The notes below the pieces were generated by a model. That model made no database searches. It saw only the letters and a list, made by a program, of their open reading frames with translations, and was not told where the DNA came from. DNA of 64,000 nucleotides, taken from positions 47,706 to 111,705 of the IMG/VR virus record IMGVR_UViG_3300043411_002995, one strand, 5' to 3'. The DNA is from a virus. Shown here one piece after another: positions 21,352 through 64,000 of the stretch. The position numbers were made by a program, and so were the translations under genes. How positions within the stretch are numbered: the stretch's first letter is position 1; each line of letters opens with the position of its first letter.

Positions 21352-21370
21352 GGCATAAGAAAGGACAGAA
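21352..21370 (+). promoter_or_regulatory. phage-specific promoter candidate GGCATAAG-N8-GAA
   Basis: One of six copies located just upstream of plus-strand genes. Confidence 0.7.
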
Positions 21371-21813: not shown

Positions 21814-21830
21814 GGCATAAGAAGAGGGAA
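21814..21830 (+). promoter_or_regulatory. phage-specific promoter candidate GGCATAAG-N6-GAA
   Basis: Exact motif upstream of ATG 21852. Confidence 0.75.
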
Positions 21831-22331: not shown

Positions 22332-22829
22332 ATGACGCCGTTCCTCCAGGCCTTCACCGATGAGCTGGTCAAGCTCGGCGCGGACAACGACCTGGTCGAC
22401 GTCTTCCGGGAGGCCAAGAAGGAGACCCGGAGGCAGCCGGCGCGGGACAGCGCCCTGAGCGCGCTGCGCGGGAACGGCACCCCGGTCAGCCGCAACTACC
22501 TCGCGTCGATGTTGATCGGCGGGATCTCGGTGCCGGCGGTGGCGGTCATGAGCAAGCGGATCTCGCGGGCCCTGAACAACAAGACCGTGCAGCGTGAGCT
22601 CCGCGGCCTTGGGCCGATGGCGCACCCGAAGAAGGTCCGGGCGCTGCGCGACGAGTTGCACACCGGCCCGTCGTTCGGGCGCGCGCGCCCCGGCACGCCG
22701 TTGAACACCCGGCCGCTCATCACGCACGGCGAGGCCGCCGGTCTTGCGGCGAGCGGCGTCGCGACCGGTGGCCTGGTGCAGATGATCCGGGACTACTTCG
22801 CGGGCAGCGCGCCGACGACCCCGCGCTAG
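22332..22829 (+). CDS. putative internal head protein with AFTDELVKLG tag
   Basis: MTPFLQAFTDELVKLGA; TACACT 7 nt before the ATG (leaderless). Confidence 0.75.
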   Translation: MTPFLQAFTDELVKLGADNDLVDVFREAKKETRRQPARDSALSALRGNGTPVSRNYLASMLIGGISVPAVAVMSKRISRALNNKTVQRELRGLGPMAHPKKVRALRDELHTGPSFGRARPGTPLNTRPLITHGEAAGLAASGVATGGLVQMIRDYFAGSAPTTPR

Positions 22830-30771: not shown

Positions 30772-31869
30772 TGAGGGCGTCGCGAGCCGCGAGCCGCGAG
30801 CCGGGTTGTAGAGCGACTCGACCATGTCCTTGTAGAAGGCGGTCTTGCTCGGCGGCTTCGCCTGGGCGCGCTCCTTCGCCGGCCCGCCGACCTGCCCAGG
30901 ACCGATGCTCTTCGGCTTGGGCGGGCTGGTCCCCATGCGCCAGGCCGAGCTCGCGCTCGAGCGCAAGGCCCCCGGTGCCTTGACCTCGGCGCCGGCCGCC
31001 GCCGCCCCGAGCTTCTCCTCCTGCGCTTCGAGCTCGCCCGCCCGCCGCTTCGCCGCCGCCCCTTCCCTCAGCGCCTCGACCAGCCGCTTGGCCAGGATGG
31101 TCGCCAGGACCGGCGCCGCCGCCGCCGCGACGTAGGTGCCGAAGGACGGGGCGAGCTCCTTCAGTGCGCGCATGGTGCCGTAGCCGCTGTGGCGAGCCCC
31201 CTGCAACGCCTTGTAGGACGCCCGCGCCTCCTCGATGAGTTCGGGGGCGGTGGTGGCGGCCACCAGCGCGGGGGCGTGGTCGTAGACGAACCGCCGGACC
31301 CGCTCCCCCTCCTGGGGCTCCGAGATCGTGCTGGCCGCGAGCCCCGCCCGAACCAGGTGGCCGATGGTGGACCCCGTGCCGAGCGTCTTGCCCATCGACT
31401 GGAGGGCCCGCCGCAGGTCGTGGCTGCCGGCGATCGGCGAGGCGTGGCCGATCTCGTGGAACGCCTGTGGGACCGACGACCGGTTGAGCCCGATGTGGGG
31501 GGTGACGTCGCCGACGGGCTCGCCGGCGATGCGCATGAGCAGGCTGCGGAGCGGGCCGGGGCGGTCCATGAAGTAGCCGGACTCGAACCCCGGCCCACCG
31601 GCGATGATGGGGACGGTGACGCCGCTCTTGCGGGCGAAGTCGGCGATTGCCTCCGCCTCGGCGCGCGTGAACTTCGAGAGCCGCTTCAGCGGCGTGCCGG
31701 TGTCGTCGTCGAGCGGCACGCCGGACATGAGCAGCTTCGCGAGCCCGTGCGGAGCGTCGCTCGTGAGCGGAGAGATCACGCGAGGAAGCCCTTCGTACGC
31801 GGCCGCGGCCGCGAGCGCTGGCGCGACGCCGAGCCCCCCACCGTCTTCCTGGTCCCGATCGTCGGACAT
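30766..31869 (-). CDS. membrane-associated zinc metallopeptidase (YugP/Zn_peptidase_2-like)
   Basis: AFHEIGHA, LIEEARASYKAL, FGTYVAAA; start overlaps the RNAP stop. Confidence 0.7.
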   Translation of the reverse strand: MSDDRDQEDGGGLGVAPALAAAAAYEGLPRVISPLTSDAPHGLAKLLMSGVPLDDDTGTPLKRLSKFTRAEAEAIADFARKSGVTVPIIAGGPGFESGYFMDRPGPLRSLLMRIAGEPVGDVTPHIGLNRSSVPQAFHEIGHASPIAGSHDLRRALQSMGKTLGTGSTIGHLVRAGLAASTISEPQEGERVRRFVYDHAPALVAATTAPELIEEARASYKALQGARHSGYGTMRALKELAPSFGTYVAAAAAPVLATILAKRLVEALREGAAAKRRAGELEAQEEKLGAAAAGAEVKAPGALRSSASSAWRMGTSPPKPKSIGPGQVGGPAKERAQAKPPSKTAFYKDMVESLYNPARGSRLATPSG

Positions 31870-34800
31870 CAGTAGACGCCTTCCTTCCTGGAACGACCCT
31901 GCGGGGCATCACCGAACTCGGCGCCGTAGGCGAAGGCCGGGACCGGTGAGTACCCGTGGAGGTCTGACTCGCTCATGGTGGCAGCGCCTTCGATGAGGCC
32001 CCTGGCCAGCTCACGATACCCCATCTGCCCCATCCAGTCGTCGCGGAGGAGGGGTACCCGCTGGATGCCGGCGAGGAAGGGTTCGTGGACGACCCGCTTC
32101 GGGCCCACGCCGATCGTCTTCTTCCCGCGGCGCTCCAAGACCGCCTTCATCGTCTCGTCGAAGGTCTCGCCCTTGGTAGCGCCGGGCACATCGTCCTCGT
32201 GCACGACATGCCCGACGGCTTCCTCGAGAGGCAGGTCACCGACCTTCTTGTTGTTGTAGTCGTTGACGACGGTCCACGACGCCACGTCACCCGGCAGGTA
32301 GGGGCCATCGCCAGGATCCAACACCCGCGTGGTGTTCCCCGCCGCGCGCACGACGGTCTCGATCGCCCGCCGCTTCAGCTTCACACCCTGGCCGTCGAAG
32401 GCCTTGTGGATCTCCTCGACGACGTAGTTCATCGCAGGGAGCATGCCCTTGAGGCGAACGAGGTCCTGCGGCTGCGCGATGCCCTTCGACAGGATGTCAC
32501 CACGCTTCACCTCGGACCCGACCCGGACGCGATCGCTGTCCCAGAGCCCCTGCTCGACGAAGACCGGCTCCTTCGAACCGCGGATGAAGATGTTCGTGCC
32601 GCCGCCGCCGGGCACGTCCTCGATCCGGTCGACCTTGCCGTCGGCCTCGGCCAAGGCCGCGCGGCCGCGCTTGATCTGGTGCAGCTTGAAGAGCTTGTCG
32701 ATCGCGGCGTACCCATCGAGGACGCCGCGCGTGCCCGAGACGCCGCCCTGGTGGAAGGTGCGCATCGTCATCTGGGTCAGCGGCTCGGACATCGCCTGAC
32801 CGGAGATCGCCCCGACGTTGTCGCCGATCGCCGGCAGCTTGCCGTTCTCGGTGATGCCGTAGCTCTTGGCGCTGATGCCGTGGGGCGTCGGGTCGGTCAA
32901 CGGCGACATCACCCACAGCGTCTTCTGCTTGCGGTCGCGCAGGGTGTTCAGCAGCGCCGCGGTGACCTGGTCGCCGGCGTGGGCGATGACCGTCCCGCCG
33001 ATGCGGATGTCCTTCGACAGGAAGCGGTCCTCGAGGTCGTTCGACCGGTTGTCGACCGGCAGCTCGATGCCTTCCTGCGGCCCCGAGTCGTGCCGCGAGA
33101 CCACCTGGGTCACCGAGGTGGCCATGATGTCCTTGTTGAAGGCGCCGGGCTCGGAGGTCTGCATCTGCTTGTCCACCGCGGCGGCCCGCGCGCCGTAGAG
33201 GGTCGCCCAGTAGTCGGACAGCGGCAGCCCCTCGGCGAACGAGCGCATCACCGGCGCGAGCTGGGCGTTGCCCCGGTGGTCGTCGACCATGAACGGCGCC
33301 GAGACGATCTGCTTGAGCTGGTTGCGGTTGCCGCGCGCGCCCGACCGCACCATCAGGTCGAAGTTGTTGTCCTGCTCGGGCAGGCGGACCTTGAGCATCG
33401 CGTTGAGCTCGTCGTTGGCCGCCGAGATGAGCTGCTCGCCGCTCGCACGCCCCTCGGGGGTGTCGAGCTTCAGCCCCAAGAGCCCCTTCCGGGTGCGCTC
33501 GAAGATCGCCTTCTTCTCGGGCAGGTCGGGGAGCAGGTCCTTCAGGCTCACGGTGAACCCGGTCTTGTAGGTGTGGAGGTCCCCCATCTTCTTGAGCTTG
33601 TCGACGACCCCGCCGTGGTCCTTCGGCAGCACGCGCGCGAGGTCGCGCATCAGCTCGTCGAGCCCCTTGCTGTCGAGCTCGCGGTCCGCGAACTTCGTCT
33701 GCAGCTCGGGTGGCAGCACCTGCAGCAACTCGGGCTTGTACTTCGGGTCGCGCGACATCTGGTACAGCCCCAGCGCCGCCTCGTTCTGCGGCTTGATCAT
33801 GATGCCGCCGGTGCCCGGGTTGAAGAGGTTCCGCGACGGCATCATCCGGTACGCCTCCTCGATCGCGTCCTCGAGGATGGGCACGTGGACGTTCATGGCG
33901 TCGCCGTCGAAGTCGGCGTTGAAGCCCTTCACGACGAGCGGCGGGATCTTGATCGCCCTCCCATCGGTCATCTGCGGCGTGAAGCCCATCACCGAGAACT
34001 TGTGGAGCGAGGGGGCGCGGTTGAGCAGCACCGGGCGCGAGGCCATCTCGGCCTGCAGCGCCGATAGCGCGATGGGGGATCGCTTGTCGATCTCCTCCTC
34101 CGCGGCGAGCGGCTTCATGCCCGAGTGGTTCACCAAGCGCCGGGTCACGAACGGGCGGAAGAGCGTCCAGGACATCTCCTCGGGGAGTCCGACCTCGTCG
34201 ACGCCGAGCTTGGGCTCGGGGATGATGGTGCCGCGGCCGACCAGGTTCTGTCGCCGGCGCAGCACCTCGTACTGGAAGTAGCCGGTCTTCGCCGGCTTGC
34301 CCTTGACCTGCTCGAGCACGCCCTTGGGCCGGCGGGCCTCGGGGTAGAAGGCGATCGGCTTGCCGATGCCCGAGAGCGCCTGCATGCCCTTGTAGAGGTC
34401 CTCGCGGAGCGGCGCGCTCACCGAGTCGGGGATGAACGGGATGTCGTTCTGCCACTTCAGCTCGTTGTTCACGAGCGCAAGGTCGCGGTAGAGCGTGTTG
34501 AGCCCGGGCGTCGACAACGACCCATCCTCCATCTCGACGACGGGGCGGAAGTTGGGGGGGATGACGGGGAGCTTCGTCTGGACGTAGGCGTCCTCGGGGC
34601 GGATCTTGAGCTTCTTGAGCGCGGAGAGGTACTTCAGGCTCTTGTTCGCCTTGTCGAGCTCCTCGGGGGTCCGTGCCTGCTTGGCCTCCTCGGTCCACTG
34701 GGAGATCTGGTCGTCGACGTTGATCTTGCCGAGCAGCGCCTTCACGGCGGCGCCGCTGGTGACGGTGACGGGATCCTTCTCGTCGCCGAACTCCCCGGTC

Positions 34801-37800
34801 TCGGGGTTCACCCAGAGCTTGCCGGTGACCAGGCCACTGAACTGCTGCTCGTTGAGCCCGGTGAGCTGTCGGATCGGCTTCTCGAAGATGGGGTTCGGGA
34901 CGGGCTCGGCCAGATCGATGTGCCCCCAGCGGTCGCCCTTGCGGCCGCCGAAGACCGTGCGGTCGAGCAACCCGCCGCGCTCCTCCTTCAGGTCCTTGGC
35001 GTTGACGAAGACCGGATCGACGACCGCGCCGTTGCTGATCTTGTCGACGTCGGCGTCCGTCATCGGCTGCAGGACCATCTTCGAGCCGTTCCGCTTCACG
35101 TTGATGCCGGCGGCCTGGAGGTAGCCCTCGAACTTCTTGTAGGCGAAGGTCGGGGTCGGCGGCGGCTTCATCAGCCCTGAGCCGGCGCCGCCGGCGAGCC
35201 AGGTCCAGAACGGCTCGTTCTTGGACGCCTTGTAGGTCGCCATCTCGCGCAGGTTCGCGCGCGCGCCATGCGACAGCATCGAGTAGAAGGTGATGAGGTC
35301 GAGCGCCTTGGCGCCTTCCTCGCCGCCGCTCACGGGGTTCCCGTTGGAGTCGTACTTGCCCTCGCCGCGCGCCGAGTACTGGGTAGTCGCCTGCTTTCCG
35401 AGCTTCAGGATGTACTGCGGCCCGGTCATGACCTGCCCCAACGCCTCCTTGCTGTGGGGGTCGTAGAGCGTCTCGGTGTCGGAGACGCCGGCCTTGGCCA
35501 GCTCGTCGCTGACCCGCTGGGCGTACCCGTCCTTGCTCGTGATCGCGTTGTCGACGATGTAGGGCTTGCCCCGGTGCTCGGCGAGCTTGGCGGCCGCCGT
35601 CTCGAGCATCTGGGACGGGTTCACGCGGCTGGTGATGCCGTGCGGGTTGAGGAGGATATCGATCGGCTCGTGCGTGCCGTCGGGCTTGATCGAGTACGGC
35701 GCCTCCGCATCCTCGATGATCTTCGTGATGATGCCCTTGCCGCCGTGACGGTTCGTGACCTTGTCGCCGATCTGCGCTGGCTCGCGCGTGCGGACGTAGA
35801 CCTTCACCTTCTTGCCCGTGCGGACGACGTCGACGACCTCGCCGTCGTAGTCCTCGGTCCACTCCTCGGCGACCCCCCGCTTCGGGGGCATGTTGGCGCC
35901 GAGGCGACGCATCGCGAGGTAGTCGGGGTCGTTCTTGTTGTCCTTGGTGCCGACCCAGAGCGGGTCGCCCTTGCGGACGATCTGTCCCTTCCGGATGACC
36001 CCATCCTTGTCGAGCTTGGCCGAGGTCTCGTCGTCGATCGCCCCGGGCTTCCACGCCCGGTACTGGTCGAGCGAGAGGGTCGTCTGCTCGTTGAGCATCG
36101 TCGAGTACTGGTGCATGTGCTCGCTGGTGAGCTTTTTGCGCGCGCTCTCGGTGATGACGATGCCGTCCTCGAAGTTGTAGCCCTTCCAGGGGATGTAGGC
36201 GGCCTTGAGGTTGGTGCCGATCGCCATCACCCCGTCGGAGGTGAAGTTGGTGTCGGCCAGGGTCTCGCCCTTCTTGACGGCCTGCCCCTCGACCACGCGC
36301 ACCGTCGAGTCGACGAACGCCTTGTTGTTCAGCGGGAGGTTGCTGAACAGCGGATGCTCGTTCTCGCCGTCCTTGGTCTTGACCACGATCTTGTTCTTCG
36401 AGATCGACTGGACGACGCCGTCCTCGAGGGCGGCGGTGGAGAAACTCCCGCCGATCGCCCGCTCGATCGTGCCGCCCCCGACCTTCACCTGCACGAGCGG
36501 CGCCTCGCGGTTGACCAGCGGGATCGCCTGCTCGAGCATCTTGGTCGCCATCTGCGCCCGGACGCCCATGGCGGCGGGCAAGAAGGGGATGGTGTTCGAG
36601 GCGATCGAGAAGGCCTGCCGTGGTGAGTGCAGCACCACGTCGACCTGGTCGGCATCGACCAGCCGGCGCTCCCCGTTGACGTGGGCCAGCACCTTCTTGT
36701 CGATCGCCACGCCGTCCTCGAACTGGTCGGAGAAGGAGAGCGTGAGGTTCGCGGCCTCGGCCGCGGTGATCTTCCGGTTCTTCTTCGTCTTGACGTCGTA
36801 GACGGTGGTCTCGAGCTCGTCGCCGCGCTTGCTCACGCCCACCGGCAGGTGCATCGTCAGGCCGATGTGGCCGGAGTCGGGCGTGTGGATCGGATCGATG
36901 AACCCGAGCTGCGACGGGTGGACGGCGCGCTCCTCCGCCCGGACGTTCTGCGCGTTGGACCCCGCGCCGCCCTCGCCCATGATGGTGACCTTGGTCATCC
37001 CGTTGAGCATGTGGATCGGGTTCGTCTGATCGGGCACGTGGGCGTGCCCGCCGGTCTGCGTGAAGAACGACGAGAGCGTCGAGGAGAGCTGGTTCGAGCT
37101 CACGAGCTGCCCGACCTGCGTCGGGGGCTGCCGCTGGTTGTTCAGCTTCCGCAGGATCTTCCTGCGGTACTCGTTGAGGAACGGCTGGATCTCGCCGTTG
37201 TCCTTGACGAGACGCTCGCGCATCAGGTCCGAGACGGACATGATCTTCTTGAACTCGAGGGACTGGCGATCGTCGGGCGCCCGCTTCCCAGCGGCGGCGG
37301 CGATCAGCTCCTTGGAGCTGGCGACGATGGCCTCGGGGGAGACCTTGTCGAAGGCCTGGCCCACCGTCTTCTTGGTGACCTCGGGGCGGAGCTCGGTCTG
37401 GTCGAAGTAGGCCAGGAGCGCCTTGCCGGCCTCGTCAGGCGTCTCGAACCGCGGGCGCGTGTCACCCGCCCGCAGCCGCTTCAGGTCGGCGGCCTTGTCG
37501 GCGGCGAAGTACTCGGCGGCCTTCTTGACGGACTCGTTCGCCTTCTTCTTCGAGGCGGCCTTGTTCGCGCTGAGGATCTGGTCGCCCCAGGCCCGCGCCA
37601 GGGTTGAGTCGGCCACGCCCATGGCCGAGAGGATGGGGTAGAGCGCCGGGCCGCTCTTGTCCTCGGCGCCGCCGGCGCGGCGGGCGAGGCGGAAGACCGT
37701 GGAGGCGGGGTTGAACTCGACGTCGAAGGCGCGGCCGGCGACGTTGATCTCGGCCTTCGTCTCGCCGTTCTTCTTCTCGGTGACGTAGATGCCCGGCTTG

Positions 37801-38156
37801 CGGCGCAGCTGGCTCTGCACCTGGTAGTGCTTGCCGTCGACGATGAAACTGCCGAAGTTGGTGGCCTTGGGCAGGGTCGCGATCTTCATGCGCTTCTGCG
37901 TGGAGATCACCTTCCCGGTCTTGCGGTCGGTGAGCTCGAGGTTCGCGTAGACCGGGACGCCCCAGGTCTTGTCCTTCCGCACGGCCTCGCGCTGGCCCTC
38001 GGCGTCCCCGGGATCAGCCGAGTCGTCGACCCAGACCTCCTTGGCCCGGAGGCGGAGGCCGGTCTGCTCGGCCTGGACGTCGAGGGCCTTGGTGAAGGCC
38101 TCCGCGATGTCCTTCTTCACCTTCTCGAACTGGCTCTGGTAGTCGAAGCTCTCCAT
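31869..38156 (-). CDS. rpoBC: single-chain beta/beta' fusion DNA-directed RNA polymerase
   Basis: beta motifs GYNFEDGI, GDKVTNRHGGKG, LNPHGITSRVN; beta' motifs LLNRAPSLH, NADFDGD (33900-33920), SGARG, EPLTQMTMRTFH; no stop between halves. Confidence 0.95.
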   Translation of the reverse strand: MESFDYQSQFEKVKKDIAEAFTKALDVQAEQTGLRLRAKEVWVDDSADPGDAEGQREAVRKDKTWGVPVYANLELTDRKTGKVISTQKRMKIATLPKATNFGSFIVDGKHYQVQSQLRRKPGIYVTEKKNGETKAEINVAGRAFDVEFNPASTVFRLARRAGGAEDKSGPALYPILSAMGVADSTLARAWGDQILSANKAASKKKANESVKKAAEYFAADKAADLKRLRAGDTRPRFETPDEAGKALLAYFDQTELRPEVTKKTVGQAFDKVSPEAIVASSKELIAAAAGKRAPDDRQSLEFKKIMSVSDLMRERLVKDNGEIQPFLNEYRRKILRKLNNQRQPPTQVGQLVSSNQLSSTLSSFFTQTGGHAHVPDQTNPIHMLNGMTKVTIMGEGGAGSNAQNVRAEERAVHPSQLGFIDPIHTPDSGHIGLTMHLPVGVSKRGDELETTVYDVKTKKNRKITAAEAANLTLSFSDQFEDGVAIDKKVLAHVNGERRLVDADQVDVVLHSPRQAFSIASNTIPFLPAAMGVRAQMATKMLEQAIPLVNREAPLVQVKVGGGTIERAIGGSFSTAALEDGVVQSISKNKIVVKTKDGENEHPLFSNLPLNNKAFVDSTVRVVEGQAVKKGETLADTNFTSDGVMAIGTNLKAAYIPWKGYNFEDGIVITESARKKLTSEHMHQYSTMLNEQTTLSLDQYRAWKPGAIDDETSAKLDKDGVIRKGQIVRKGDPLWVGTKDNKNDPDYLAMRRLGANMPPKRGVAEEWTEDYDGEVVDVVRTGKKVKVYVRTREPAQIGDKVTNRHGGKGIITKIIEDAEAPYSIKPDGTHEPIDILLNPHGITSRVNPSQMLETAAAKLAEHRGKPYIVDNAITSKDGYAQRVSDELAKAGVSDTETLYDPHSKEALGQVMTGPQYILKLGKQATTQYSARGEGKYDSNGNPVSGGEEGAKALDLITFYSMLSHGARANLREMATYKASKNEPFWTWLAGGAGSGLMKPPPTPTFAYKKFEGYLQAAGINVKRNGSKMVLQPMTDADVDKISNGAVVDPVFVNAKDLKEERGGLLDRTVFGGRKGDRWGHIDLAEPVPNPIFEKPIRQLTGLNEQQFSGLVTGKLWVNPETGEFGDEKDPVTVTSGAAVKALLGKINVDDQISQWTEEAKQARTPEELDKANKSLKYLSALKKLKIRPEDAYVQTKLPVIPPNFRPVVEMEDGSLSTPGLNTLYRDLALVNNELKWQNDIPFIPDSVSAPLREDLYKGMQALSGIGKPIAFYPEARRPKGVLEQVKGKPAKTGYFQYEVLRRRQNLVGRGTIIPEPKLGVDEVGLPEEMSWTLFRPFVTRRLVNHSGMKPLAAEEEIDKRSPIALSALQAEMASRPVLLNRAPSLHKFSVMGFTPQMTDGRAIKIPPLVVKGFNADFDGDAMNVHVPILEDAIEEAYRMMPSRNLFNPGTGGIMIKPQNEAALGLYQMSRDPKYKPELLQVLPPELQTKFADRELDSKGLDELMRDLARVLPKDHGGVVDKLKKMGDLHTYKTGFTVSLKDLLPDLPEKKAIFERTRKGLLGLKLDTPEGRASGEQLISAANDELNAMLKVRLPEQDNNFDLMVRSGARGNRNQLKQIVSAPFMVDDHRGNAQLAPVMRSFAEGLPLSDYWATLYGARAAAVDKQMQTSEPGAFNKDIMATSVTQVVSRHDSGPQEGIELPVDNRSNDLEDRFLSKDIRIGGTVIAHAGDQVTAALLNTLRDRKQKTLWVMSPLTDPTPHGISAKSYGITENGKLPAIGDNVGAISGQAMSEPLTQMTMRTFHQGGVSGTRGVLDGYAAIDKLFKLHQIKRGRAALAEADGKVDRIEDVPGGGGTNIFIRGSKEPVFVEQGLWDSDRVRVGSEVKRGDILSKGIAQPQDLVRLKGMLPAMNYVVEEIHKAFDGQGVKLKRRAIETVVRAAGNTTRVLDPGDGPYLPGDVASWTVVNDYNNKKVGDLPLEEAVGHVVHEDDVPGATKGETFDETMKAVLERRGKKTIGVGPKRVVHEPFLAGIQRVPLLRDDWMGQMGYRELARGLIEGAATMSESDLHGYSPVPAFAYGAEFGDAPQGRSRKEGVY

Positions 38157-38174
38157 GGTCACCTGGTGCCGTCG

Positions 38175-45349: not shown

Positions 45350-46495
45350 CTACGCCTCGCCGGAGATGACCTGCTTGATCAGCGCCTTCTCGGGGGCCGG
45401 GAGCGACTCGTAGATCTCGACCGGGTTGGCCGCGAACTGGCTGGCGAAGCTCGACCCCATGTAGCCGGCGATCTTCTTCTGGACAGCCTCCTTGCGCAGG
45501 TCGGCCTCGGTGATCGTCATCCCGTCGACCTCGTCGGACCACCCCTCGGCGACCTTGCCCATGGTGCTGGCATAAGGGTCGCTGAGCCCCCGATCGTAGT
45601 ACCGCGACAGCCCGGTCGCGGCGTCGATGGCCTGGAGGGCTGCTGCAGCGTCCTCCGGGCTGGTCTCCCCCAGGGAGGCCGCCAGCTTGTCGAGGACCGA
45701 CCGAGCGTCCTGGTTGCGAGGAAGGAGGGACTTGCGCTGCTCGATGTGGGCCAGCACGTGGCGGTTCCAGCCCGGCGACGCCCACTTCTCGAGGAGGTCG
45801 TGACCGGAGACGTCCACCTCGAGCTCGGCCGCGCGGGCCTGCACGTTGCGCGCGAACTGGTGACGGTGCGGAGGCGAGAGGTCCATGGCGTACTTGTCGA
45901 AATACTCGGCCGCCACCTTCACGTACTCGGCCGTCGGCATCGCGTACTTGCGCAGGATGGTCCCGTCCTCCGAGCGCACCACGAGCCCCCAGTGCTCGTT
46001 GGGCAGGTTGACGAAGGCCTCGATCTCCGCGGCCTGGGCCTGCTTCTCGATGAACTCGCGCTCGGCGAGCTTGCGCAGCATCCACCCAGTCTCCGATCCC
46101 TCGACGAAGGTGTTGCTCGTCGCCTCGTCATCACCCACCCGCGCCGCGTACGCGGCCACCATCTTCGAGTTCGGCACCCCGTACGCGTCGCATGCGGTCT
46201 TGATGAACTTGGCGGCGATGAACCTCGCCGGCCAGGCCAGCTTCTCGTGCGTCGCCTGGAAGTACTGGGCGCTCAACCAGGCGTTGCCCGGGTCGTTCAC
46301 CGGGTAGCGCCGCATCACCGCCGCGCGCTTGGTCAGGACGATCAAGCCGAAGTCGGTGTCCGGCAACGCGGCGTGCTGGTCCGCCGTCAAGACCGTGGTC
46401 TGCGCGCGCGCGATCGCGGCAGGCATGGCGATCTTGCTCATCAACTCGTGCTTGCTGTCGTCGTAGAAGTCGAGGACCGCGGCTGCGATGGTCAT
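45350..46495 (-). CDS. hypothetical head-associated protein with internal duplication
   Basis: LPDTDFGLIV...RRYPV and LPNEHWGLVV...RKYAM repeats; many K-x-A. Confidence 0.7.
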   Translation of the reverse strand: MTIAAAVLDFYDDSKHELMSKIAMPAAIARAQTTVLTADQHAALPDTDFGLIVLTKRAAVMRRYPVNDPGNAWLSAQYFQATHEKLAWPARFIAAKFIKTACDAYGVPNSKMVAAYAARVGDDEATSNTFVEGSETGWMLRKLAEREFIEKQAQAAEIEAFVNLPNEHWGLVVRSEDGTILRKYAMPTAEYVKVAAEYFDKYAMDLSPPHRHQFARNVQARAAELEVDVSGHDLLEKWASPGWNRHVLAHIEQRKSLLPRNQDARSVLDKLAASLGETSPEDAAAALQAIDAATGLSRYYDRGLSDPYASTMGKVAEGWSDEVDGMTITEADLRKEAVQKKIAGYMGSSFASQFAANPVEIYESLPAPEKALIKQVISGEA

Positions 46496-57798: not shown

Positions 57799-58085
57799 CG
57801 GCGGTCCTTGTACGCCCGGTTGAACTTCTCGCGGTCGATCGGCTCGCGGGTCGTGGCAGGCGCGCCGAGCTGCCCCGGAACGACGGCGATCGGCGAGGCG
57901 GCGGTCAGCGGCAGGCGCGTGCCGGCGAGCGCCGGGTTGAGCAGGATGGACGGCGGGGTCACGCCCGGGGACATCATCCCGTGGGGGATCTCGCTGGTGT
58001 TGATCTCGCCGTCCTCCGCCCGCTTGTACAGGCAGCCCATCGCCCCGACCTTCACCAGCTCATCGACGAAGCTGAGCAAGTTCAT
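57795..58085 (-). CDS. small protein with SFVDELVKVG tag
   Basis: MNLLSFVDELVKVGA...YKRA; 4-nt overlaps on both sides. Confidence 0.7.
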   Translation of the reverse strand: MNLLSFVDELVKVGAMGCLYKRAEDGEINTSEIPHGMMSPGVTPPSILLNPALAGTRLPLTAASPIAVVPGQLGAPATTREPIDREKFNRAYKDRR

Positions 58086-60136
58086 ACGAGGCTCCGGGCC
58101 AGGGTGATGTCCCGGGCGATGAACCGGGCGATGCGCGGCGACAGCGGCTTCTCGGTGGGATCGGGGATCTCGTCGTCGGGGATGCGGACGACGCCCTGGG
58201 CATCCGGGTTCGTGAAGATGACCGAGCCGTCGTGGTTGTGGATCTCCCCGCGGAGCGTCTGGATCGTCCCCATGTCCACGCGGGTCGCGCCGTTGTCGTA
58301 GAGGAGGTCGATCAGGTCGGAGAGCTCGAGGGCGTTTCCCTCGTCGATGTCGTCGATGAACGCCTTCAGCAGGTCGGTCATCTCGTCGACGGTGATGGCC
58401 GTCGTCGACGTCGACGTCGGGATGTCGTAGGTGATGGCGGTGGTCCCGTCGACGTAGACGGGGATGAAGTGACGGGCGAGCAGGGAGGCGGTCTCGCTCT
58501 GGTTGTTCCGGTCGTCCATGAAGGCCTGGATCGCCTGGATCGCGGACGCGTACTTGTAGTTCACGCGGAGCGATGCGCCGACCTGGGTGTCGGCCAGCTC
58601 GATGTAGTTGTCCTCGCGCTCGGAGTGCCGCAGCGTGGACTCGGTGACGATCAGCTGGAAGTCCGGGGACGAGCCGACACCGTAGCCGCCCGCGCCGTAG
58701 CCGCCCGCGCCGTAGCCGCCGACGCCGCTCAGCACGTCGCCGGTGGGGTCGCCCGAGAGCGGGTCGAGCACCTCGATGGAGGCGATGTACATCAGCGGCA
58801 CGTCGGTGATCGTGAAGTCGGTGCGGTCCACCGCCCGCGCCTCCTTGATCACGTCGATGGCGACGGGGTTGTACTCGTAGGAGACCGTCAGGTTGTCGTC
58901 CATCTGGAAGTCGACGCCCGTCTCGGCCGCGATCGGGAAGGAGCCGTAGATCTCGACGGTGTCGTCGTCGATCTTCCGCTTGATGGTGTAGGTGCCGGCG
59001 ACGGAGGCCGGGGTGTCGATCGTCAGGATCATCCCCGCCCGGGCCGAGACGAAGTCGCCGGTGGACTCGAAGATCTTCAGCCCCGTCACGTCAGCGCCGG
59101 TACCGTCGACGTGCACGATGCCCGAGCCGATCGGCCGGGAGATCAGGTTGTCGACGATCTCGTAGTCGATGGTGACGGCGTAGGTGACGGCGCCGTCGAT
59201 GCTCCGGACGACGGGCGCGACCTCCGAATCGTCGACCGGGTGCCCGAGGTCGTACCCCACGCCCTGGTCGAGCAGCACCACCGTGGTGGTCGTCGCGCGG
59301 CGGCGCGACGTGTCGACCTCGAGGCCGAAGAAGTCCGCGGCCCCGTCCGAGAGGGTGGCGGTCTTGATGTACACGTCGACGTTGCCGCCGATGTGCACGT
59401 TGTAGACGATGTCCCGCATCATCTCCGGCTGGCCGAAGCCGATGGGCTCGATCTCGACGATCGTCGTGAAGTTCTCGGTGAGCGTGACGATGATGCCACG
59501 GCCGGTGACGAGCGCCCGCACCGTGACGGCGACCTTGATGCGGTCGATCAGCTCGGTGTTGGTCTCGCGGTTTCGGCCCTGGTCGATGCCGAAGAGGTTG
59601 GTCGTGTTGGCGACGCCGGCGGGCTCCGACTCCATCGTCGTGATGGAGCCCTTGTCGGCGTTGAAGTCCTCGCCCTCCTCGAGCGCGATGATCGGGATGT
59701 CGAGGTAGTAGAGGGTGCCCTCCTGGTTCAGCGCCATCTCGGCGCTGGTCACGGAGACGGCCTCGGAGTTCGAGTAGCGCTGGCCCGTGGCGCCCCGGAA
59801 GATCAACACGCCCTTCTGCGCACCGAAGTCCTGGGGGCGGAAGAAGCGGATGCGCTGCACGTCCGAGCCGATGGCGCCCGGGATGCGTTCGACGAAGACG
59901 TTCGACGCCAGGCCGTCGACGATGTCCTCGGGGAACGCGTCGGGGTCGTCCGACTCGAGGATCGTGAGGATCGACTGGCTCGCCTGGACGACGGTCAGCT
60001 CGTCGATGATCGGCTGCAGGATGATGGCCTGCGGGTCGATCATCAGGCTCGTGGTGGGAACGCCCGAGCCGACGTCGAAGCTCGGATCGTACTCGAGCAG
60101 GCGCTGGATGATGAAGTCGCGGACGGGAAGGGCCAT
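58082..60136 (-). CDS. baseplate J-like wedge protein
   Basis: IIALEEGEDFN...GSI, GRNRETNTELIDRI, GGNVDVYI. Confidence 0.8.
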   Translation of the reverse strand: MALPVRDFIIQRLLEYDPSFDVGSGVPTTSLMIDPQAIILQPIIDELTVVQASQSILTILESDDPDAFPEDIVDGLASNVFVERIPGAIGSDVQRIRFFRPQDFGAQKGVLIFRGATGQRYSNSEAVSVTSAEMALNQEGTLYYLDIPIIALEEGEDFNADKGSITTMESEPAGVANTTNLFGIDQGRNRETNTELIDRIKVAVTVRALVTGRGIIVTLTENFTTIVEIEPIGFGQPEMMRDIVYNVHIGGNVDVYIKTATLSDGAADFFGLEVDTSRRRATTTTVVLLDQGVGYDLGHPVDDSEVAPVVRSIDGAVTYAVTIDYEIVDNLISRPIGSGIVHVDGTGADVTGLKIFESTGDFVSARAGMILTIDTPASVAGTYTIKRKIDDDTVEIYGSFPIAAETGVDFQMDDNLTVSYEYNPVAIDVIKEARAVDRTDFTITDVPLMYIASIEVLDPLSGDPTGDVLSGVGGYGAGGYGAGGYGVGSSPDFQLIVTESTLRHSEREDNYIELADTQVGASLRVNYKYASAIQAIQAFMDDRNNQSETASLLARHFIPVYVDGTTAITYDIPTSTSTTAITVDEMTDLLKAFIDDIDEGNALELSDLIDLLYDNGATRVDMGTIQTLRGEIHNHDGSVIFTNPDAQGVVRIPDDEIPDPTEKPLSPRIARFIARDITLARSLV
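58681..58720. repeat. 15-nt tandem repeat encoding GGYGA
   Basis: cgtagccgcccgcgc repeated about 2.7 times. Confidence 0.85.
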
Positions 60137-60585: not shown

Positions 60586-62574
60586 TCAGTCGCAGAGCAC
60601 GACGCCGGCGTTGGGATGGTCCGAGAACTCCTCGAGCCCGGCGGCCAAGCGGCCACCGGCGCCTACCGCCAGGTGATCGATGTTCGCCGCGAACCCGTTC
60701 AGCGCCTGCAGCTGATCGAAGGTCTGCTCCACGGCCTCGCCGGCGGCGAGGAGGATAGTCTTGAGCTCGCTGACGATGCTCTCGACGGTCTTCGCGTTCT
60801 TCTGGATCGACGCGACCTTGCCCTTCAACTTCTTCAGGGTGCGGGTCCGCCCCTGGTCGGCGCCGTCGGCGGCCGCGATGTCCATGTTCGAGCGCTGGGC
60901 GATGAGGCCATCCCGGATCTTCCCGATCTGCTGGCGCGTCTGGGCATCGTCGGTGCCCTTGATGCCGTGCCCCAGGCACTTGATCGCGATGCCGAGGTAA
61001 GACAGGTCCTCGAGGTCAGCGCTCAGGAACTCCTCGAACCCGCCCGTCGTGAGCAGGTCGACGCCGCGGTCCAGGCCGAGTCGACGCAGCGACTCCTGCA
61101 GATCCTCGAGCTTCGCGGAGGTCTTCAGGTCGATCGCCGCGAACGACTCGCAGAGCGCCTTCTGGCGCTTGGCCACGGTGATGGAGCGCTGGATCCGGCT
61201 GGTCTGGGCGGTCGCCGTCGTGACGGCTTCGAGGTGGAACGTGGCGAGGCGGTTCTCGGTCGTCCGGCCGTTCTCGAGGTCCTTCACGATCCGCCGGGCG
61301 CCCTTGGTGAGCGCCAAGACGCGGTCACGCAGCAGGAGCGGGTTCTCGATGCCCGCGGTCGTCTCGTCGTTCTCGATCGCCGTCAGGCCGGTCAGGAGCG
61401 CCTGGAAGGCCTGCTCGAGCTGGTAGGCCTTGTCCGGCCCCTCCACAGAGCCTTCCTGCAGGGTGAGCAGCCTCACCCGGTCCATGGTGGCCAGGATGGT
61501 CTTGACCCGCGCGGACCAGAGGAGCATCTCGCCGGACGCGGCCGACAGCGCCTGGCGACTCCGGGCTAGGTCGATCCGCTCGGCGAGGTTCGCGAGCCGG
61601 GTCTGGATCTCACGGATGGCGCGCGAGCGCTGCTCCGCGACCTTGCTGGCCTGCCCCGACCGCCGGTAGCTGCCGATCACCTCGCCCAGCTTGCCGACGT
61701 AGTAGTTGATCACCTGGACCTGGGTGACAACGGCCGAGATCTCCACCTCGATGAGCTGGATGAGCGACGGGATGACCAGGGTCACGAGCTTGCGGTTGCC
61801 GCGGGTCACGTTGGCGGTCGTGACGCTCCCGTAGAGCAGGATGTCGGTGGCGTCGAGCAAGGACGTGCCGTCCTTGTCGGGCGTGAGCAGGGAGCTGGCG
61901 TCGGTCAGCTGCTGGCGCGCGCGCTCGAACGCCTGGAAGTCGAAGTGCACTTCGCCCGCCTTGACCCGCTGGCTGAGGACCAGGTTCGCCTTGACCTGCG
62001 CCAGCAACGCCGCCACCGCGTCGAGGTCCTCGAAGGTCTCGTCCTTGTAGGTGGTGACGCTCTTCGCCAGGACGAGCACGGCGTTGACCAACTGCACGAT
62101 GTGCTTCCGCAGGCACTCCAGGTTCTTGGTCTTCAGGTCGTCGAGCTCGATGATGACCTCGCACATCTTCTGGCCGGCCGCGTAGGGCATGTCGGACAGC
62201 AGGGCAAGCATGGAGCTGCCGTTCGCGACCACGACGCTCGAGAGGTTGCGGGTCGCGTGGACCCGCTTCGTGACGCTGGGGTACTCCGCCGCCATCGCAC
62301 CCAGGATGTCGCTGGCCTCGCGCCGCACGAGCTGGGCCCCGATGCCGACCGCCGCAGATCCCAGGTTGCTGTAGATGTCCCCCTCGGACAGCGCGGCCAC
62401 GTCGGCGATCAGCGAGTCGACGTTCAGGTCGCCGAGGGCCGCCAGTGGGTCCGTGAACCCCTGGACCGCCGTCGCGATCTCGTCGGTCAACGCGGCGAGC
62501 TCCTTCGCCACGAACTGCGGGAAGACCGTGGAGAGGCAGCCGGCGGCCAGCTTGACGTCGTCGATGCTCGCCAT
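60586..62574 (-). CDS. large all-helical protein of unknown function
   Basis: 662 aa, GC3 bias, coiled-coil character. Confidence 0.7.
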   Translation of the reverse strand: MASIDDVKLAAGCLSTVFPQFVAKELAALTDEIATAVQGFTDPLAALGDLNVDSLIADVAALSEGDIYSNLGSAAVGIGAQLVRREASDILGAMAAEYPSVTKRVHATRNLSSVVVANGSSMLALLSDMPYAAGQKMCEVIIELDDLKTKNLECLRKHIVQLVNAVLVLAKSVTTYKDETFEDLDAVAALLAQVKANLVLSQRVKAGEVHFDFQAFERARQQLTDASSLLTPDKDGTSLLDATDILLYGSVTTANVTRGNRKLVTLVIPSLIQLIEVEISAVVTQVQVINYYVGKLGEVIGSYRRSGQASKVAEQRSRAIREIQTRLANLAERIDLARSRQALSAASGEMLLWSARVKTILATMDRVRLLTLQEGSVEGPDKAYQLEQAFQALLTGLTAIENDETTAGIENPLLLRDRVLALTKGARRIVKDLENGRTTENRLATFHLEAVTTATAQTSRIQRSITVAKRQKALCESFAAIDLKTSAKLEDLQESLRRLGLDRGVDLLTTGGFEEFLSADLEDLSYLGIAIKCLGHGIKGTDDAQTRQQIGKIRDGLIAQRSNMDIAAADGADQGRTRTLKKLKGKVASIQKNAKTVESIVSELKTILLAAGEAVEQTFDQLQALNGFAANIDHLAVGAGGRLAAGLEEFSDHPNAGVVLCD

Positions 62575-62577
62575 GGG

Positions 62578-63426
62578 CTACCAGAACCTGTCGACCTTCT
62601 TCTTGATCTGACTCTTCAGGGAGCGGATCTTCTGCGGCGACAGGTTGAGCTGCTGGGCGAGCGCCAGGTCGTCCTCGATGACCGGCTTGCCGAAGCCCTC
62701 GAAGGTGTGCTCGAGCACGAGCTGCTGTTCGGGGTTCAAGGACCCGTGGAGGAAGACGATCTGGCGCCGGAGCTTGCTGTCCGCATCCACCTCAACCGCG
62801 CCGCCAGCCATCTCGGTGGTGAGATCCTGGCGCAGCTCCTTCCGCAGCGTGCCCACGACCTTCGGCGTGATCCTGTTGTTCTTGAGGTTCGCGGTGTCCT
62901 GCGCCGAGAGGAGCATGTCGTCGGCGAGCTCGGTGTCGGTGGGCACGCGCCCGAGCTTCTCCTTGAGCTCGTTCTCGCGCTGCTGCAGGAGGCCGATCAG
63001 GCCGGCACGCTCTTCGGGGATGCGGCCGACGTTCGTGTAGCGCTGCAGGTACCGACCGGTGCGGCCGACGCCGTTGTAGACGTGCGAGCTGAACTTGGTC
63101 CCGAAGGAGGGGTCGAAGGTCTTGAGCGCCTCCACGTAGCCGCGCAGCAGGCTGCCCTTCACCGCGCTCTTGGGCACCTGCGCCGAGCTGATGTACCGAT
63201 TGCCGGCGGCGTTGATCAGCGGCTGGTGCTTGTTGTACAGCCACTCGAAGTCCTCGGGGTTCGGCGTCTCCTGCCAGCGCTTGATGACCTCGGCCTCGCC
63301 GGCGTAGAGGTCGTTCGGGTCCAGCCCCTGCTCGAGCGCCTCCTTGACGAGCCACGCCGCGAGCTCAGCGTCGACATCGAAGTCGGCGCTCGGGTCGGTG
63401 TGCTCTTGCTCATCCAGTGAAGCCAC
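62578..63426 (-). CDS. phage sigma70-family RNA polymerase sigma factor
   Basis: GTG 63426 with GAGGA; region 2 (YVEALKTFDPSFGTKFSSHV), region 3 (RIPE...LKEKLGRVPTDTELA), region 4-like (LNPEQQLVL...LAQQLNLSPQKIR). Confidence 0.85.
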   Translation of the reverse strand: MASLDEQEHTDPSADFDVDAELAAWLVKEALEQGLDPNDLYAGEAEVIKRWQETPNPEDFEWLYNKHQPLINAAGNRYISSAQVPKSAVKGSLLRGYVEALKTFDPSFGTKFSSHVYNGVGRTGRYLQRYTNVGRIPEERAGLIGLLQQRENELKEKLGRVPTDTELADDMLLSAQDTANLKNNRITPKVVGTLRKELRQDLTTEMAGGAVEVDADSKLRRQIVFLHGSLNPEQQLVLEHTFEGFGKPVIEDDLALAQQLNLSPQKIRSLKSQIKKKVDRFW

Positions 63427-64000
63427 GGGTCCTCGCCAGCTCTTCGCGGTAAGCGTCGATGATCGCCCGGCGCAGGTCAACGACCTGCTTCTCCGACAGC
63501 GGCTGGGGCAGCGCGTGGCGCTCCTCCTGCTCCAGGCCATCGCCGGTTGGCGCCTGCACCTTGGTCGGCATCGAGGTGGTCTTGCGCGCGCGGGCGTCGT
63601 GGCGCCCCTTCTTCTTGCGCGCGTCCTCGTCCTTCTTCCGGGCCTCGATGTCGTCCTTGCGCTTCTGCGCCGACGCCGCACGCTCCTCGGCCGTCTTCGG
63701 TCGGACGATGTTCCCCTTGGGGTCCTCGAGGAAGTAGTCCGACGCCTCCGCGTTCTCCTCGATCTTCCCCCCCGTGGGGGCGAAGCCGGCGTCGCGCAGC
63801 GACTGCTGCCAGAGCCGGAACTCGAAGTCGAACATCAGGGGGCGGCCGTCGTACCGCGCCCGATCGGACAGCGCCCGTTCGGCCCCGCTCTTGATCAGCG
63901 CGTCGCGGGTCTTCTTGTCCGTCGCCTCCTTCCCCGTGTGGATCTTCGTGTCGAAGACCGGGAAGGCTCCGGCCATCCGATCCGGGGGAGGCGCAGCACC
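63410..64000 (-). CDS. C-terminal part of a hypothetical protein
   Basis: Frame open to the window edge; charged composition. Confidence 0.6.
   Translation of the reverse strand, partial: GAAPPPDRMAGAFPVFDTKIHTGKEATDKKTRDALIKSGAERALSDRARYDGRPLMFDFEFRLWQQSLRDAGFAPTGGKIEENAEASDYFLEDPKGNIVRPKTAEERAASAQKRKDDIEARKKDEDARKKKGRHDARARKTTSMPTKVQAPTGDGLEQEERHALPQPLSEKQVVDLRRAIIDAYREELARTRGFTG

What the first reader, a model, noticed from the sequence alone, without database searches (positions are those of the whole stretch)
62578..63426. Sigma70-family factor inside the baseplate operon with a possible cleavable acidic leader
Seen: sigma regions 2-4 preceded by an acidic leader of about 30 aa ending AWLVKEA, the same K-x-A pattern that ends the leaders of head proteins. 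It has no Cys and is co-oriented with virion genes. Region 2.3-2.4 diverges from housekeeping sigmas (KFSSHVYNGVGR instead of KFSTYATWWIRQ). Inference: a late-made sigma packaged with the fused RNAP that reads the GGCATAAG promoters in the next infection.
Basis: partly seen in the sequence, partly recalled or inferred. Interest (0 to 1): 0.72.

Follow-up and report, generated by a model that had tools for sequence, protein, structure and literature searches.

The report
Phage sigma factor among baseplate genes
An uncultivated large phage encodes a divergent sigma factor among its baseplate genes; it most likely guides the phage's own single-chain RNA polymerase to a conserved phage promoter and is probably carried in the virion, a pairing that reviews say phages lack.

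Summary
The ORF at 62578-63426 (-) is a real but divergent sigma70-family protein of 282 aa. It has sigma2, sigma3 and sigma4 domains, no Cys, and an acidic N-terminal extension of 33 residues. It is tightly packed into the baseplate operon.

The same family sits next to the baseplate-J gene in every relative examined. These include Salmonella phage Arash and Vibrio phage D69. It nearly always co-occurs with one phage-encoded bacterial-type RNAP (fused beta-beta' here).

New here: GG[C/T]ATAAG is conserved and strand-specific across this phage group. The own contig has 13 copies against 0; close relatives have 26 against 0; Arash has 30 against 1. It resembles an extended -10 element with an invariant G at -7, and it heads the non-structural genes.

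Published Arash virion proteomics found the sigma and both RNAP pieces in particles. So packaging with the RNAP and reading these promoters is indirectly supported.

The cleavable K-x-A leader is not supported. A profile of the phage's F-x-D-E-L-x-K-x-[AG] tag does not detect the leader. The leader is absent from Arash gp10, which was recovered at 100% coverage.

The scan reached a similar reading before on another genome (e1-5942732).

The parts
62578..63426 (-). Sigma70-family gene, 282 aa, GTG start, no Cys
   Evidence: There are 113 homologous clusters.
63328..63426 (-). N-terminal extension, residues 1-33: an acidic tail plus an amphipathic helix (residues 18-32) with the motif D-x-D-A-E-L-x-x-W-L-x-K-E-A-A
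   Evidence: L22, W25, L26, K28 and A30 are kept in 88-98% of 105 homologues. The AF2 model gives a helix at residues 18-32. The profile of the phage's shared tag does not detect it.
63022..63324 (-). Region 1.2-like segment plus the sigma2 domain (residues about 35-135). Region 2.2 is divergent (S-A-V-K-G-S where bacterial sigmas have D-L-x-Q-x-G), and region 2.3 lacks the W-dyad.
   Evidence: Alignments to RpoS and S. aureus SigB; AF2 helices 44-131.
62833..63015 (-). Sigma3 domain (residues about 138-198). It includes the R-I-P-E-E-R segment at the position of sigma70 region 3.0. R140 is nearly invariant.
   Evidence: Pfam Sigma70_r3 match at residues 149-176; alignment A2; AF2 model.
62581..62775 (-). 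Sigma4 domain (residues 218-282) with a conserved helix-turn-helix (S-P-Q-K-[IV]-R)
   Evidence: RpoS alignment to residue 271; invariant S263 and K266; AF2 helices 218-281. Residues 204-214 before it are disordered, like a 3.2 linker.
63410..64000 (-). C-terminal end of a roughly 900-1000-aa upstream protein, cut by the contig end. It takes the place of the hub/lysozyme gene gp8 of Arash.
   Evidence: It matches the last 190 residues of proteins of 891-1005 aa in L004-L006. Arash gp8 is annotated as a structural cell wall hydrolase.
60586..62574 (-). Conserved 662-aa protein of unknown function, immediately downstream of the sigma gene
   Evidence: 30-53% identity in L004-L006. No family hit.
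58082..60136 (-). Baseplate J-like gene. It is the conserved neighbour of the sigma gene in all lineages examined.
   Evidence: Pfam PF04865 at its cut-off; synteny in L002, L004-L006 and L008-L011.
31869..38162 (-). Fused beta-beta' RNA polymerase, 2097 aa, no Cys. It is the proposed partner of the sigma.
   Evidence: Pfam Rpb2 and Rpb1 domains. The beta' clamp-helix region and a flap-tip-like segment align to bacterial RNAP. It is the only RNAP in the contig.
21352..21359 (+). GGCATAAG site, 30 nt before a + strand gene. Further copies lie at 21814, 29158, 38175, 38519, 45569 and 46580. All are on the + strand.
   Evidence: Seven copies in the window against 1.93 expected; 0 of 100 shuffles reach 7. 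Thirteen against none in the whole contig.

Best explanation
The gene encodes the promoter-specificity subunit of the phage's own RNA polymerase. It is a sigma70-family protein of group-3-like build (sigma2, sigma3, sigma4).

Proposed mechanism (inferred):
- The sigma docks on the clamp helices and flap of the single-chain beta-beta' enzyme encoded 24 kb away.
- It directs that enzyme to GG[C/T]ATAAG promoters. These look like extended -10 elements (G at -14, A at -11, invariant G instead of T at -7) and head the non-structural genes on the opposite strand.
- The sigma and the RNAP are both transcribed with virion genes, while the genes they appear to serve must be expressed first. So the holoenzyme is most likely loaded into particles late and delivered with the DNA at the next infection.
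- The acidic N-terminal helix is a clade-specific accessory element. It lies in the position of sigma region 1.1, so it may autoinhibit the sigma or bind the polymerase. It is probably not a protease-removed propeptide.

Shown here: family membership, gene order, co-occurrence and motif conservation.
Inferred: the binding partner, promoter use, packaging and the role of the leader.

My separate odds: partner of the phage RNAP 0.75; reads GGYATAAG 0.65; is in virions 0.6.
For: - Sigma fold and domains.
- The sigma gene lies upstream of, and on the same strand as, the baseplate-J gene in three close and four distant IMG/VR loci and in Arash; Vibrio D69 shares Arash's gene order by annotation.
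- There is one sigma and one RNAP set per genome. Five of five sigma-bearing records carry the RNAP. Eleven of 15 long RNAP-bearing contigs carry the sigma. The own contig has no alpha subunit and no second RNAP.
- The region 2.2 core-binding motif differs from the bacterial D-L-x-Q-x-G, while the phage beta' keeps an alignable clamp-helix segment.
- GGYATAAG counts, as motif strand against the other strand: own 13/0; in G001, G002, G006 and G008 the motif lies only on the strand opposite the sigma gene (7, 12, 4 and 3 copies against 0); Arash 30/1 (controls 4 and 6); G005 25/0; G003 10/2; also enriched in G009, G015, G020, G022, G023 and G011.
- Arash sites read (T)GGTATAAG-N5-TGTAA, then a Shine-Dalgarno sequence 8-15 nt later.
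- The hosts differ (Salmonella versus a host suited to 68% GC), yet the motif is the same.
- Arash virion mass spectrometry: gp206 had the most spectra, gp216 was present, and sigma gp10 gave 24 peptides and 467 spectra (PMC10585845).
- Cys content: 0.51% in the virion-strand proteins versus 1.77% in the other strand. The sigma has 0 of 282 and the RNAP 0 of 2097.
- Cobetia phage Carin-5 has a sigma-beta-beta' operon, so another phage lineage also pairs a sigma with its own RNAP.
Against: - There are no direct data for this phage.
- The Arash preparation listed 116 'virion' proteins, including ribonucleotide reductases and a kinase. Its authors themselves allow carry-over of abundant proteins.
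- Four of 15 long RNAP contigs gave no sigma hit, one of them 91% complete.
- The motif is not enriched in Vibrio D69, G004 and about nine other records.
- In the own phage the motif lies only 6-8 nt before GAAGGAGG. An RNA-level or translational role is therefore not excluded.
- No promoter was found for the virion-gene strand, so it is open who transcribes the sigma and RNAP genes.
- Bacterial clamp helices are conserved, so binding to the host core cannot be excluded from sequence.
Confidence: 0.55

Rival explanations
1. It is a classical phage sigma that redirects the host RNA polymerase core to phage promoters, as T4 gp55, SPO1 gp28 or the sigmas of RNAP-less jumbo phages do. The phage RNAP would work without it.
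For: It is a recognisable sigma70 homologue with all the domains needed to bind a bacterial core. Reviews assign this role to phage sigma homologues (PMC7598289, PMC13282480). TGGTATAAG in Arash has 5 of 6 matches to TATAAT plus the TG, so a host holoenzyme might also use it.
Against: - In this family the sigma nearly always comes with a phage RNAP.
- The gene sits in a virion operon rather than among early genes.
- The region 2.2 core-binding motif differs from the bacterial consensus.
- The promoter motif keeps G at -7 in phages of unrelated hosts.
- The own-phage version CATAAG is a poor match to a host -10 element.
Confidence: 0.15
2. It partners the phage RNAP but is not packaged. Both are made late and act only inside the producing cell, for example to boost late or continuing transcription. 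The Arash mass-spectrometry signal would then be carry-over.
For: The Arash virion list holds many evidently non-structural enzymes. No packaging signal was found on the sigma or the RNAP.
Against: - The motif heads replication and nucleotide-metabolism genes, which are needed early, while the sigma and RNAP lie on the strand that lacks the motif.
- The RNAP follows the portal gene, and the sigma lies in the baseplate operon, in lineages as far apart as 21-36% identity.
- The sigma and RNAP share the virion-like low Cys content.
- The RNAP beta piece gave more spectra than the major capsid protein in Arash.
Confidence: 0.2
3. One reading: the N-terminal 30 residues are a capsid-targeting propeptide that the prohead protease removes after K-E-A.
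For: The segment is strongly conserved (K28 in 103 of 105 sequences, A30 in 102 of 105). It is N-terminal and helical. The phage has a protease-like gene and a family of tagged proteins that end in K-x-[AG].
Against: - The tag profile does not detect the leader. Nine tags score at least 17.9 bits and the sigma ORF scores below -1.2 bits.
- The residues before K differ. The leader is acidic with W-L, while the tags are basic with F-x-D-E-L.
- Arash, D69, L008, L010 and L011 sigmas lack the leader.
- The RNAP has no such leader.
- Conservation of a hydrophobic helix face fits a binding helix equally well.
Confidence: 0.1

Closest known systems
Salmonella phage Arash gp10 ('RNA polymerase sigma factor RpoS', PMC10585845) and the unannotated homologue in Vibrio phages D69, D181 and D148
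   Same: It is the same protein family: 36% and 29.5% identity over regions 2-3. It holds the same place among the baseplate genes. It co-occurs with the same RNAP family. Arash shares the GGTATAAG motif. Arash gp10 was detected in virion preparations.
   Different: These sigmas are about 230 aa and lack the acidic N-terminal helix. Their RNAP is split (about 1525 aa plus 606 aa) rather than one chain. D69 shows no motif enrichment. The Arash paper reports no promoter analysis or biochemistry.
Bacterial group-3 sigma factors (SigB, SigF, FliA) and RpoS
   Same: The domain order is sigma2-sigma3-sigma4. These are the best profile and structure matches. Like group-3 sigmas, it has no long region 1.1 and no W-dyad.
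   Different: It scores far below every curated cut-off (33 bits against 315 for SigB). Region 2.2 lacks D-L-x-Q-x-G. It has an extra acidic N-terminal helix. It is encoded in a phage virion operon.
Phage sigmas that redirect host RNAP (T4 gp55, SPO1 gp28 and gp34, sigmas of RNAP-less jumbo phages)
   Same: It is a phage-encoded sigma70 relative that sets phage promoter specificity.
   Different: Those phages have no RNAP of their own, and their sigmas are made before the genes they switch on (own knowledge and PMC7598289). Here a phage RNAP is always nearby and the gene lies in a virion operon.
phiKZ gp68 and AR9 gp226, the fifth subunits of jumbo-phage non-virion RNAPs
   Same: Each is a phage-encoded initiation factor for a phage-encoded multisubunit-type RNAP (for gp226; for both).
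   Different: gp226 has no sequence similarity to sigma, and gp68 is linked to sigma factors only through structural homology. Both serve the non-virion enzyme. The present protein is a sequence-recognisable sigma70 member, and the phage has only one RNAP.
Virion-packaged phage RNAPs (N4 vRNAP, phiKZ and AR9 vRNAP)
   Same: The proposed strategy is the same: the polymerase is made late, packaged and injected to read early promoters.
   Different: No sigma70 homologue is known as part of those enzymes; the 2026 review states that phage RNAPs lack alpha, sigma and omega homologues. N4 vRNAP is a single-subunit T7-like enzyme (own knowledge).
Cobetia phage Carin-5 sigma-beta-beta' operon
   Same: It is another phage with a bacterial-type RNAP and an adjacent gene annotated as a sigma.
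   Different: That sigma has no detectable similarity to this one. The operon lies among DNA-metabolism genes, not virion genes.

Membership tests
Sigma70 family | A sigma2 domain (regions 2.1-2.4) recognisable by sequence | tested here: inconclusive
   Pfam Sigma70_r2 does not match this protein. Full-length models do align residues 46-178 (SigB 4e-8, S. aureus SigB structure). Some homologues carry precomputed PF04542 hits.
Sigma70 family | A sigma3 domain | tested here: inconclusive
   Pfam Sigma70_r3 gives E 2e-4 and 21.9 bits, below the 25.3-bit cut-off. Many homologues have PF04539. The AF2 model has a helical domain at residues 138-198.
Sigma70 family | A sigma4 helix-turn-helix domain | tested here: met
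   The RpoS alignment runs to residue 271. The cyanobacterial RpoD-type model aligns residues 96-273. The AF2 model has four helices at residues 218-281. Pfam Sigma70_r4 itself is not matched.
Sigma70 family | The overall fold of a sigma factor | tested here: met
   Foldseek against the PDB: the 50 best hits listed are sigma factors, each with probability 1.00 (66 matches with E <= 0.001). TM-scores are low (0.2-0.3), as expected for a free multidomain model compared with holoenzyme-bound chains.
Sigma70 family | Binds an RNAP core and confers promoter-specific initiation | not testable with these tools
   This needs pull-down and in vitro transcription. Co-folding of two chains was not available.
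Virion-delivered phage RNAP systems | The protein is physically present in purified particles | not testable with these tools
   Evidence exists only for the distant homologue Arash gp10 (PMC10585845). That preparation listed 116 proteins.
Virion-delivered phage RNAP systems | The genes are co-expressed with virion genes | tested here: met
   The sigma overlaps or abuts its baseplate-operon neighbours. The synteny is conserved. The RNAP lies downstream of the portal gene. The timing itself is inferred from gene order.
Virion-delivered phage RNAP systems | A phage-specific promoter class on the first-expressed genes | tested here: inconclusive
   GGYATAAG is conserved and strand-specific and lies upstream of non-structural genes. 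No transcript ends or expression timing are available.
F-x-D-E-L-x-K-x-[AG] tagged proteins of this phage (candidate capsid-targeting signal) | A match to the tag profile | tested here: not met
   Nine members score 17.9-23.9 bits and the next ORF 3.8 bits. The sigma ORF is absent from the 40 best rows, the last at -1.2 bits.

The most novel reading that the evidence does not exclude
A widespread group of large phages (at least 390 IMG/VR contigs carry the RNAP) packages a complete two-protein holoenzyme in the virion: a single-chain beta-beta' core plus a true sigma70-family factor. The phage injects it to read extended -10-like promoters with G at -7. Early transcription would then be independent of the host polymerase. 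This would be the first sigma70 homologue shown to be a virion component and to serve a virus-encoded core.
Probability: 0.45. Interest if true: 0.8.

Novelty: new variant of a known kind. Interest (0 to 1): 0.66.

Why it matters
Current reviews draw a clean line. Phages with their own multisubunit-type RNAP have no sigma homologue, and phages with sigma homologues use the host core. This family crosses that line.

It also offers a minimal bacterial-type transcription machine: one core chain and one sigma, with no alpha found. The promoter is simple and conserved.

A cultivable member (Arash on Salmonella Typhimurium) makes the idea directly testable.

The conserved G at -7, together with the altered regions 2.2 and 2.3, gives a natural experiment on how sigma factors read the -10 element and bind the core.

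Tried and rejected
I used the search for related loci and the genome search for context instead.
- The megablast of the region against phage records found nothing.
- I tested whether the sigma leader belongs to the phage's shared tag, using an HMM of the nine tags. It does not.
- The distant relative G003 has a 145-aa low-complexity N-terminal extension on its sigma, beginning D-D-L-V-E-K-M-A-K-L-G. I asked whether it is a tag shared within that genome. It is not: the best other match scores 24 against 63 for the self-match.
- I looked for a leader or tag on the RNAP N-terminus and found none.
- I searched for a promoter motif upstream of the virion-strand genes in the own contig and in Arash. 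Nothing was convincing. TTAAACTA occurs three times in Arash.
- I searched the own contig for a second sigma, a second RNAP or an alpha subunit. I found only a small protein with a sigma4-like helix-turn-helix, outside the window.
- The Carin-5 sigma is not detectably related to this one.
- The literature searches found no dedicated study of a sigma paired with a phage-encoded RNAP; the only relevant report found earlier is the Arash paper.

Full report
**What is there**

The minus-strand ORF at 62578-63426 starts with GTG and encodes 282 residues. Its start overlaps the stop of the upstream gene by 17 nt. The next gene (60586-62574) begins 4 nt after its stop. It is therefore embedded in a tight operon that continues into a baseplate J-like gene (58082-60136) and tail-fibre-like genes. 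Close homologues begin with Met at the same position.

The window is the last 64 kb of a 111.7-kb IMG/VR viral contig estimated to be 71% complete. The contig has 68% GC. It carries a terminase, a portal, a protease-like gene, a sheath-like gene and a 2097-aa fused beta-beta' RNA polymerase.

**Is it a sigma factor?**

Yes, but a divergent one.
- Pfam gives only Sigma70_r3, below its cut-off.
- PHROG_351 'RNA polymerase sigma factor' matches residues 45-280 at 9.5e-9.
- NCBIfam SigB, SigF, FliA and RpoD models match at up to 4e-8, all far below their cut-offs.
- PDB sequence search finds RpoS, SigB, SigF and SigA chains.
- An AlphaFold2 model built from 105 homologues has mean pLDDT 85. It shows helical sigma2 (residues 44-131), sigma3 (138-198) and sigma4 (218-281) domains and a disordered linker at 204-214. 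The best Foldseek hits in the PDB are all sigma factors.

- KFSSHVYNGVGR aligns with RFSTYATWWIRQ of RpoS.
- There is no Cys.
- The first 30 residues hold nine acidic residues and end in AWLVKEA.

**The leader**

In 105 aligned homologues the segment D-x-D-A-E-L-x-x-W-L-x-K-E-A-A is strongly conserved. L22, W25, L26, K28 and A30 are kept in 88-98% of sequences. It is modelled as a helix at residues 18-32. It precedes a stretch, L-D-P-N-D-L-Y, that resembles sigma region 1.2. So it occupies the place of region 1.1.

It is not the tag seen on other proteins of this phage.
- Nine proteins carry F-x-D-E-L-x-K-x-[AG]. A stricter form of the pattern, run on a partial gene set, gave 6 matches against 0.025 expected from shuffles.
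- A profile built from the nine tags scores them at 17.9-23.9 bits and the next ORF at 3.8 bits. The sigma ORF is not among the 40 best rows, the last of which scores -1.2 bits.
- K-x-A alone is two fixed residues and is expected by chance.

The leader is missing from Arash gp10, from the Vibrio D69 homologue and from several distant metagenomic homologues. Other lineages do have it: profile matches start at positions 14-18 in G013, G018, G019, G021 and G022. The RNAP has no comparable N-terminal element.

I therefore read the leader as a clade-specific functional helix. It could be autoinhibitory or polymerase-binding. I give about 0.1 to the idea that it is a protease-removed propeptide.

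**Context in relatives**

The protein search found 113 homologous clusters. All are metagenomic, on contigs up to 178 kb.
- In three close relatives (47-54% identity) the whole operon is collinear. They also show that the window's last ORF is only the C-terminal end of a protein of about 900-1000 aa.
- In four distant IMG/VR relatives (21-27% identity) and in Salmonella phage Arash, the sigma gene again lies on the same strand as, and 1-7 kb upstream of, the baseplate J-like gene. Vibrio phage D69 has the same gene order as Arash by annotation.
- In Arash the upstream neighbour is a structural hub-type lysozyme. In G003 the downstream neighbour is a VanY-like peptidase.

**Partner polymerase**

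All five IMG/VR records that hold the sigma also hold the RNAP, and each of the three that were also searched with the sigma profile has exactly one sigma. In close relatives the RNAP is fused. In distant ones, as in Arash gp206 plus gp216, it is split at about residue 1480.

The own contig has one RNAP, one sigma and no detectable alpha subunit.

Searching from the RNAP side, at least 390 IMG/VR contigs encode this polymerase. The sigma profile was found in 11 of 15 long ones, and in 3 of the 4 that are at least 90% complete.

The phage enzyme keeps a segment that aligns to the beta' clamp helices and a shortened flap-tip-like segment. The sigma's region 2.2 has S-A-V-K-G-S where bacterial sigmas have the core-binding D-L-x-Q-x-G. 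The role of that motif is from my own knowledge. This fits adaptation to a non-host core but does not prove it.

Cobetia phage Carin-5 has an unrelated sigma placed directly before its own beta and beta' genes. Pairing a sigma with a phage RNAP is therefore not unique to this group.

**The promoter**

GGCA[T/C]AAG occurs 13 times in the contig. All copies are on the + strand, and most lie 10-126 nt before + strand (non-structural) genes. In the window there are 7 copies against 1.9 expected.

The same octamer is strand-specific in relatives.
- In the close relatives G001, G002, G006 and G008 it occurs 7, 12, 4 and 3 times. It is always on the strand opposite the sigma gene and never on the sigma strand.
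- Arash has 30 copies against 1, with controls of 4 and 6. G005 has 25 against 0. G003 has 10 against 2.
- G009, G015, G020, G022, G023 and G011 are also enriched.
- It is not enriched in Vibrio D69, G004 and about nine further records. Those presumably use variants.

In Arash the sites read (T)GGTATAAG-N5-TGTAA, followed 8-15 nt later by a Shine-Dalgarno sequence and a start codon. T precedes GG in 18 of 30 sites. This is the layout of a sigma70 extended -10 promoter (TGnTATAAT), but with an invariant G at -7.

In the own phage the motif is followed after 6-8 nt by GAAGGAGG. Transcripts would then begin at the ribosome-binding site. An RNA-level role cannot be excluded.

One motif is shared by phages of Salmonella and of a host suited to 68% GC, and it deviates at a position critical for host sigma70. 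Both points argue that a conserved phage factor reads it. The nearly invariant R140, at the position of sigma70 region 3.0, is a candidate reader of the GG (inference). The Arash paper contains no promoter analysis.

**Packaging**

Evidence is indirect.
- The Arash virion proteome lists gp206 (the RNAP beta piece) as the protein with the most spectra. It also lists gp216 and sigma gp10, the latter at 100% coverage with 24 peptides. But 116 proteins were called, including metabolic enzymes, and the authors allow carry-over.
- The sigma and RNAP lie on the strand that lacks the motif, among virion genes. The motif heads genes that must be expressed early.
- Proteins of the virion strand contain 0.51% Cys against 1.77% for the other strand. 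The sigma (0 of 282), all 105 homologues (0 Cys each) and the RNAP (0 of 2097; homologues 0-7) fit the virion class.

I found no promoter for the virion strand. Who transcribes the sigma and RNAP genes is therefore open.

**Comparison with what is known**

Reviews state that phage multisubunit RNAPs lack alpha, sigma and omega homologues, and that recognisable phage sigmas belong to RNAP-less phages and act on the host core (PMC7598289, PMC13282480). phiKZ gp68 and AR9 gp226 are functional analogues; gp226 has no sequence similarity to sigma, and gp68 is linked to sigma factors through structural homology. The only published trace of the present arrangement that I found is the Arash proteome table.

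An earlier follow-up in this scan reached a similar reading on another genome (e1-5942732).

**Verdict**

The protein is a real, divergent sigma. It is most likely the specificity subunit of the phage's own polymerase, and it is probably carried in the virion. The cleavable-leader idea is not supported. This is a new variant of known kinds, and it is testable in Arash.

Noticed in passing
window 708-1007, 5858-6148, 11434-12147, 13972-14811, 14824-15228, 16241-17092, 19293-19631, 57795-58085 (all -) and 22332-22829 (+): Nine otherwise unrelated proteins share F-x-D-E-L-x-K-x-[AG], mostly within the first 20 residues. A profile scores them at 17.9-23.9 bits and the next ORF at 3.8 bits. One lies in the baseplate operon and one on the + strand, so the tag is not limited to head genes.
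   Followed up: partly
whole contig G000:C1 (window = 47706-111705): Cys content differs sharply by strand. It is 0.51% in the virion-strand proteins and 1.77% in the other strand. Several large virion-strand proteins have none: RNAP 2097 aa, baseplate J 684 aa, and proteins of 514, 495 and 367 aa.
   Followed up: partly
G000:C1:44692-45150 (+), about 2.6-3.0 kb before the window start (L028 1303-1761): A small Cys-containing protein has a sigma region-4-like helix-turn-helix (Pfam Sigma70_r4, E 4e-4, below the cut-off). It lies among the + strand genes and is a candidate transcription regulator, perhaps for the virion-gene strand.
   Followed up: no
window 31869-38162 (-) and loci L040-L119: The fused beta-beta' RNAP family is large. 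At least 390 IMG/VR contigs encode a relative, and most of the 80 fetched have the single-chain form.
   Followed up: partly
L009 9563-10669 (+) (record G003): The sigma homologue of this distant relative has a low-complexity Ser/Pro/Lys-rich N-terminal extension of about 145 aa. It begins 14 nt after the upstream gene and is not repeated elsewhere in that genome.
   Followed up: partly
window 63410-64000 (-): The last ORF of the window is only the C-terminal 190 residues or so of a protein of about 900-1000 aa, cut by the contig end. It has no family match. Its position corresponds to the hub lysozyme gp8 of Arash.
   Followed up: partly
L027 8908-9597 (Vibrio phage D69, OZ195729.1 10995-11684): The sigma homologue and the RNAP pieces of Vibrio phages D69, D181 and D148 are annotated only as hypothetical proteins. 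D181 and D148 have a homing endonuclease within the RNAP region.
   Followed up: no
L029 1172-7997 (Cobetia phage Carin-5, PV155638.1): An annotated sigma gene lies directly upstream of separate beta and beta' genes, among DNA-metabolism genes. This is a second, unrelated case of a phage pairing a sigma with its own RNAP.
   Followed up: partly
window 45569-45576 (+): One GGCATAAG copy lies inside, and antisense to, the gene at 45350-46495 (-), far from any + strand gene. It could be a chance copy or an antisense start.
   Followed up: no
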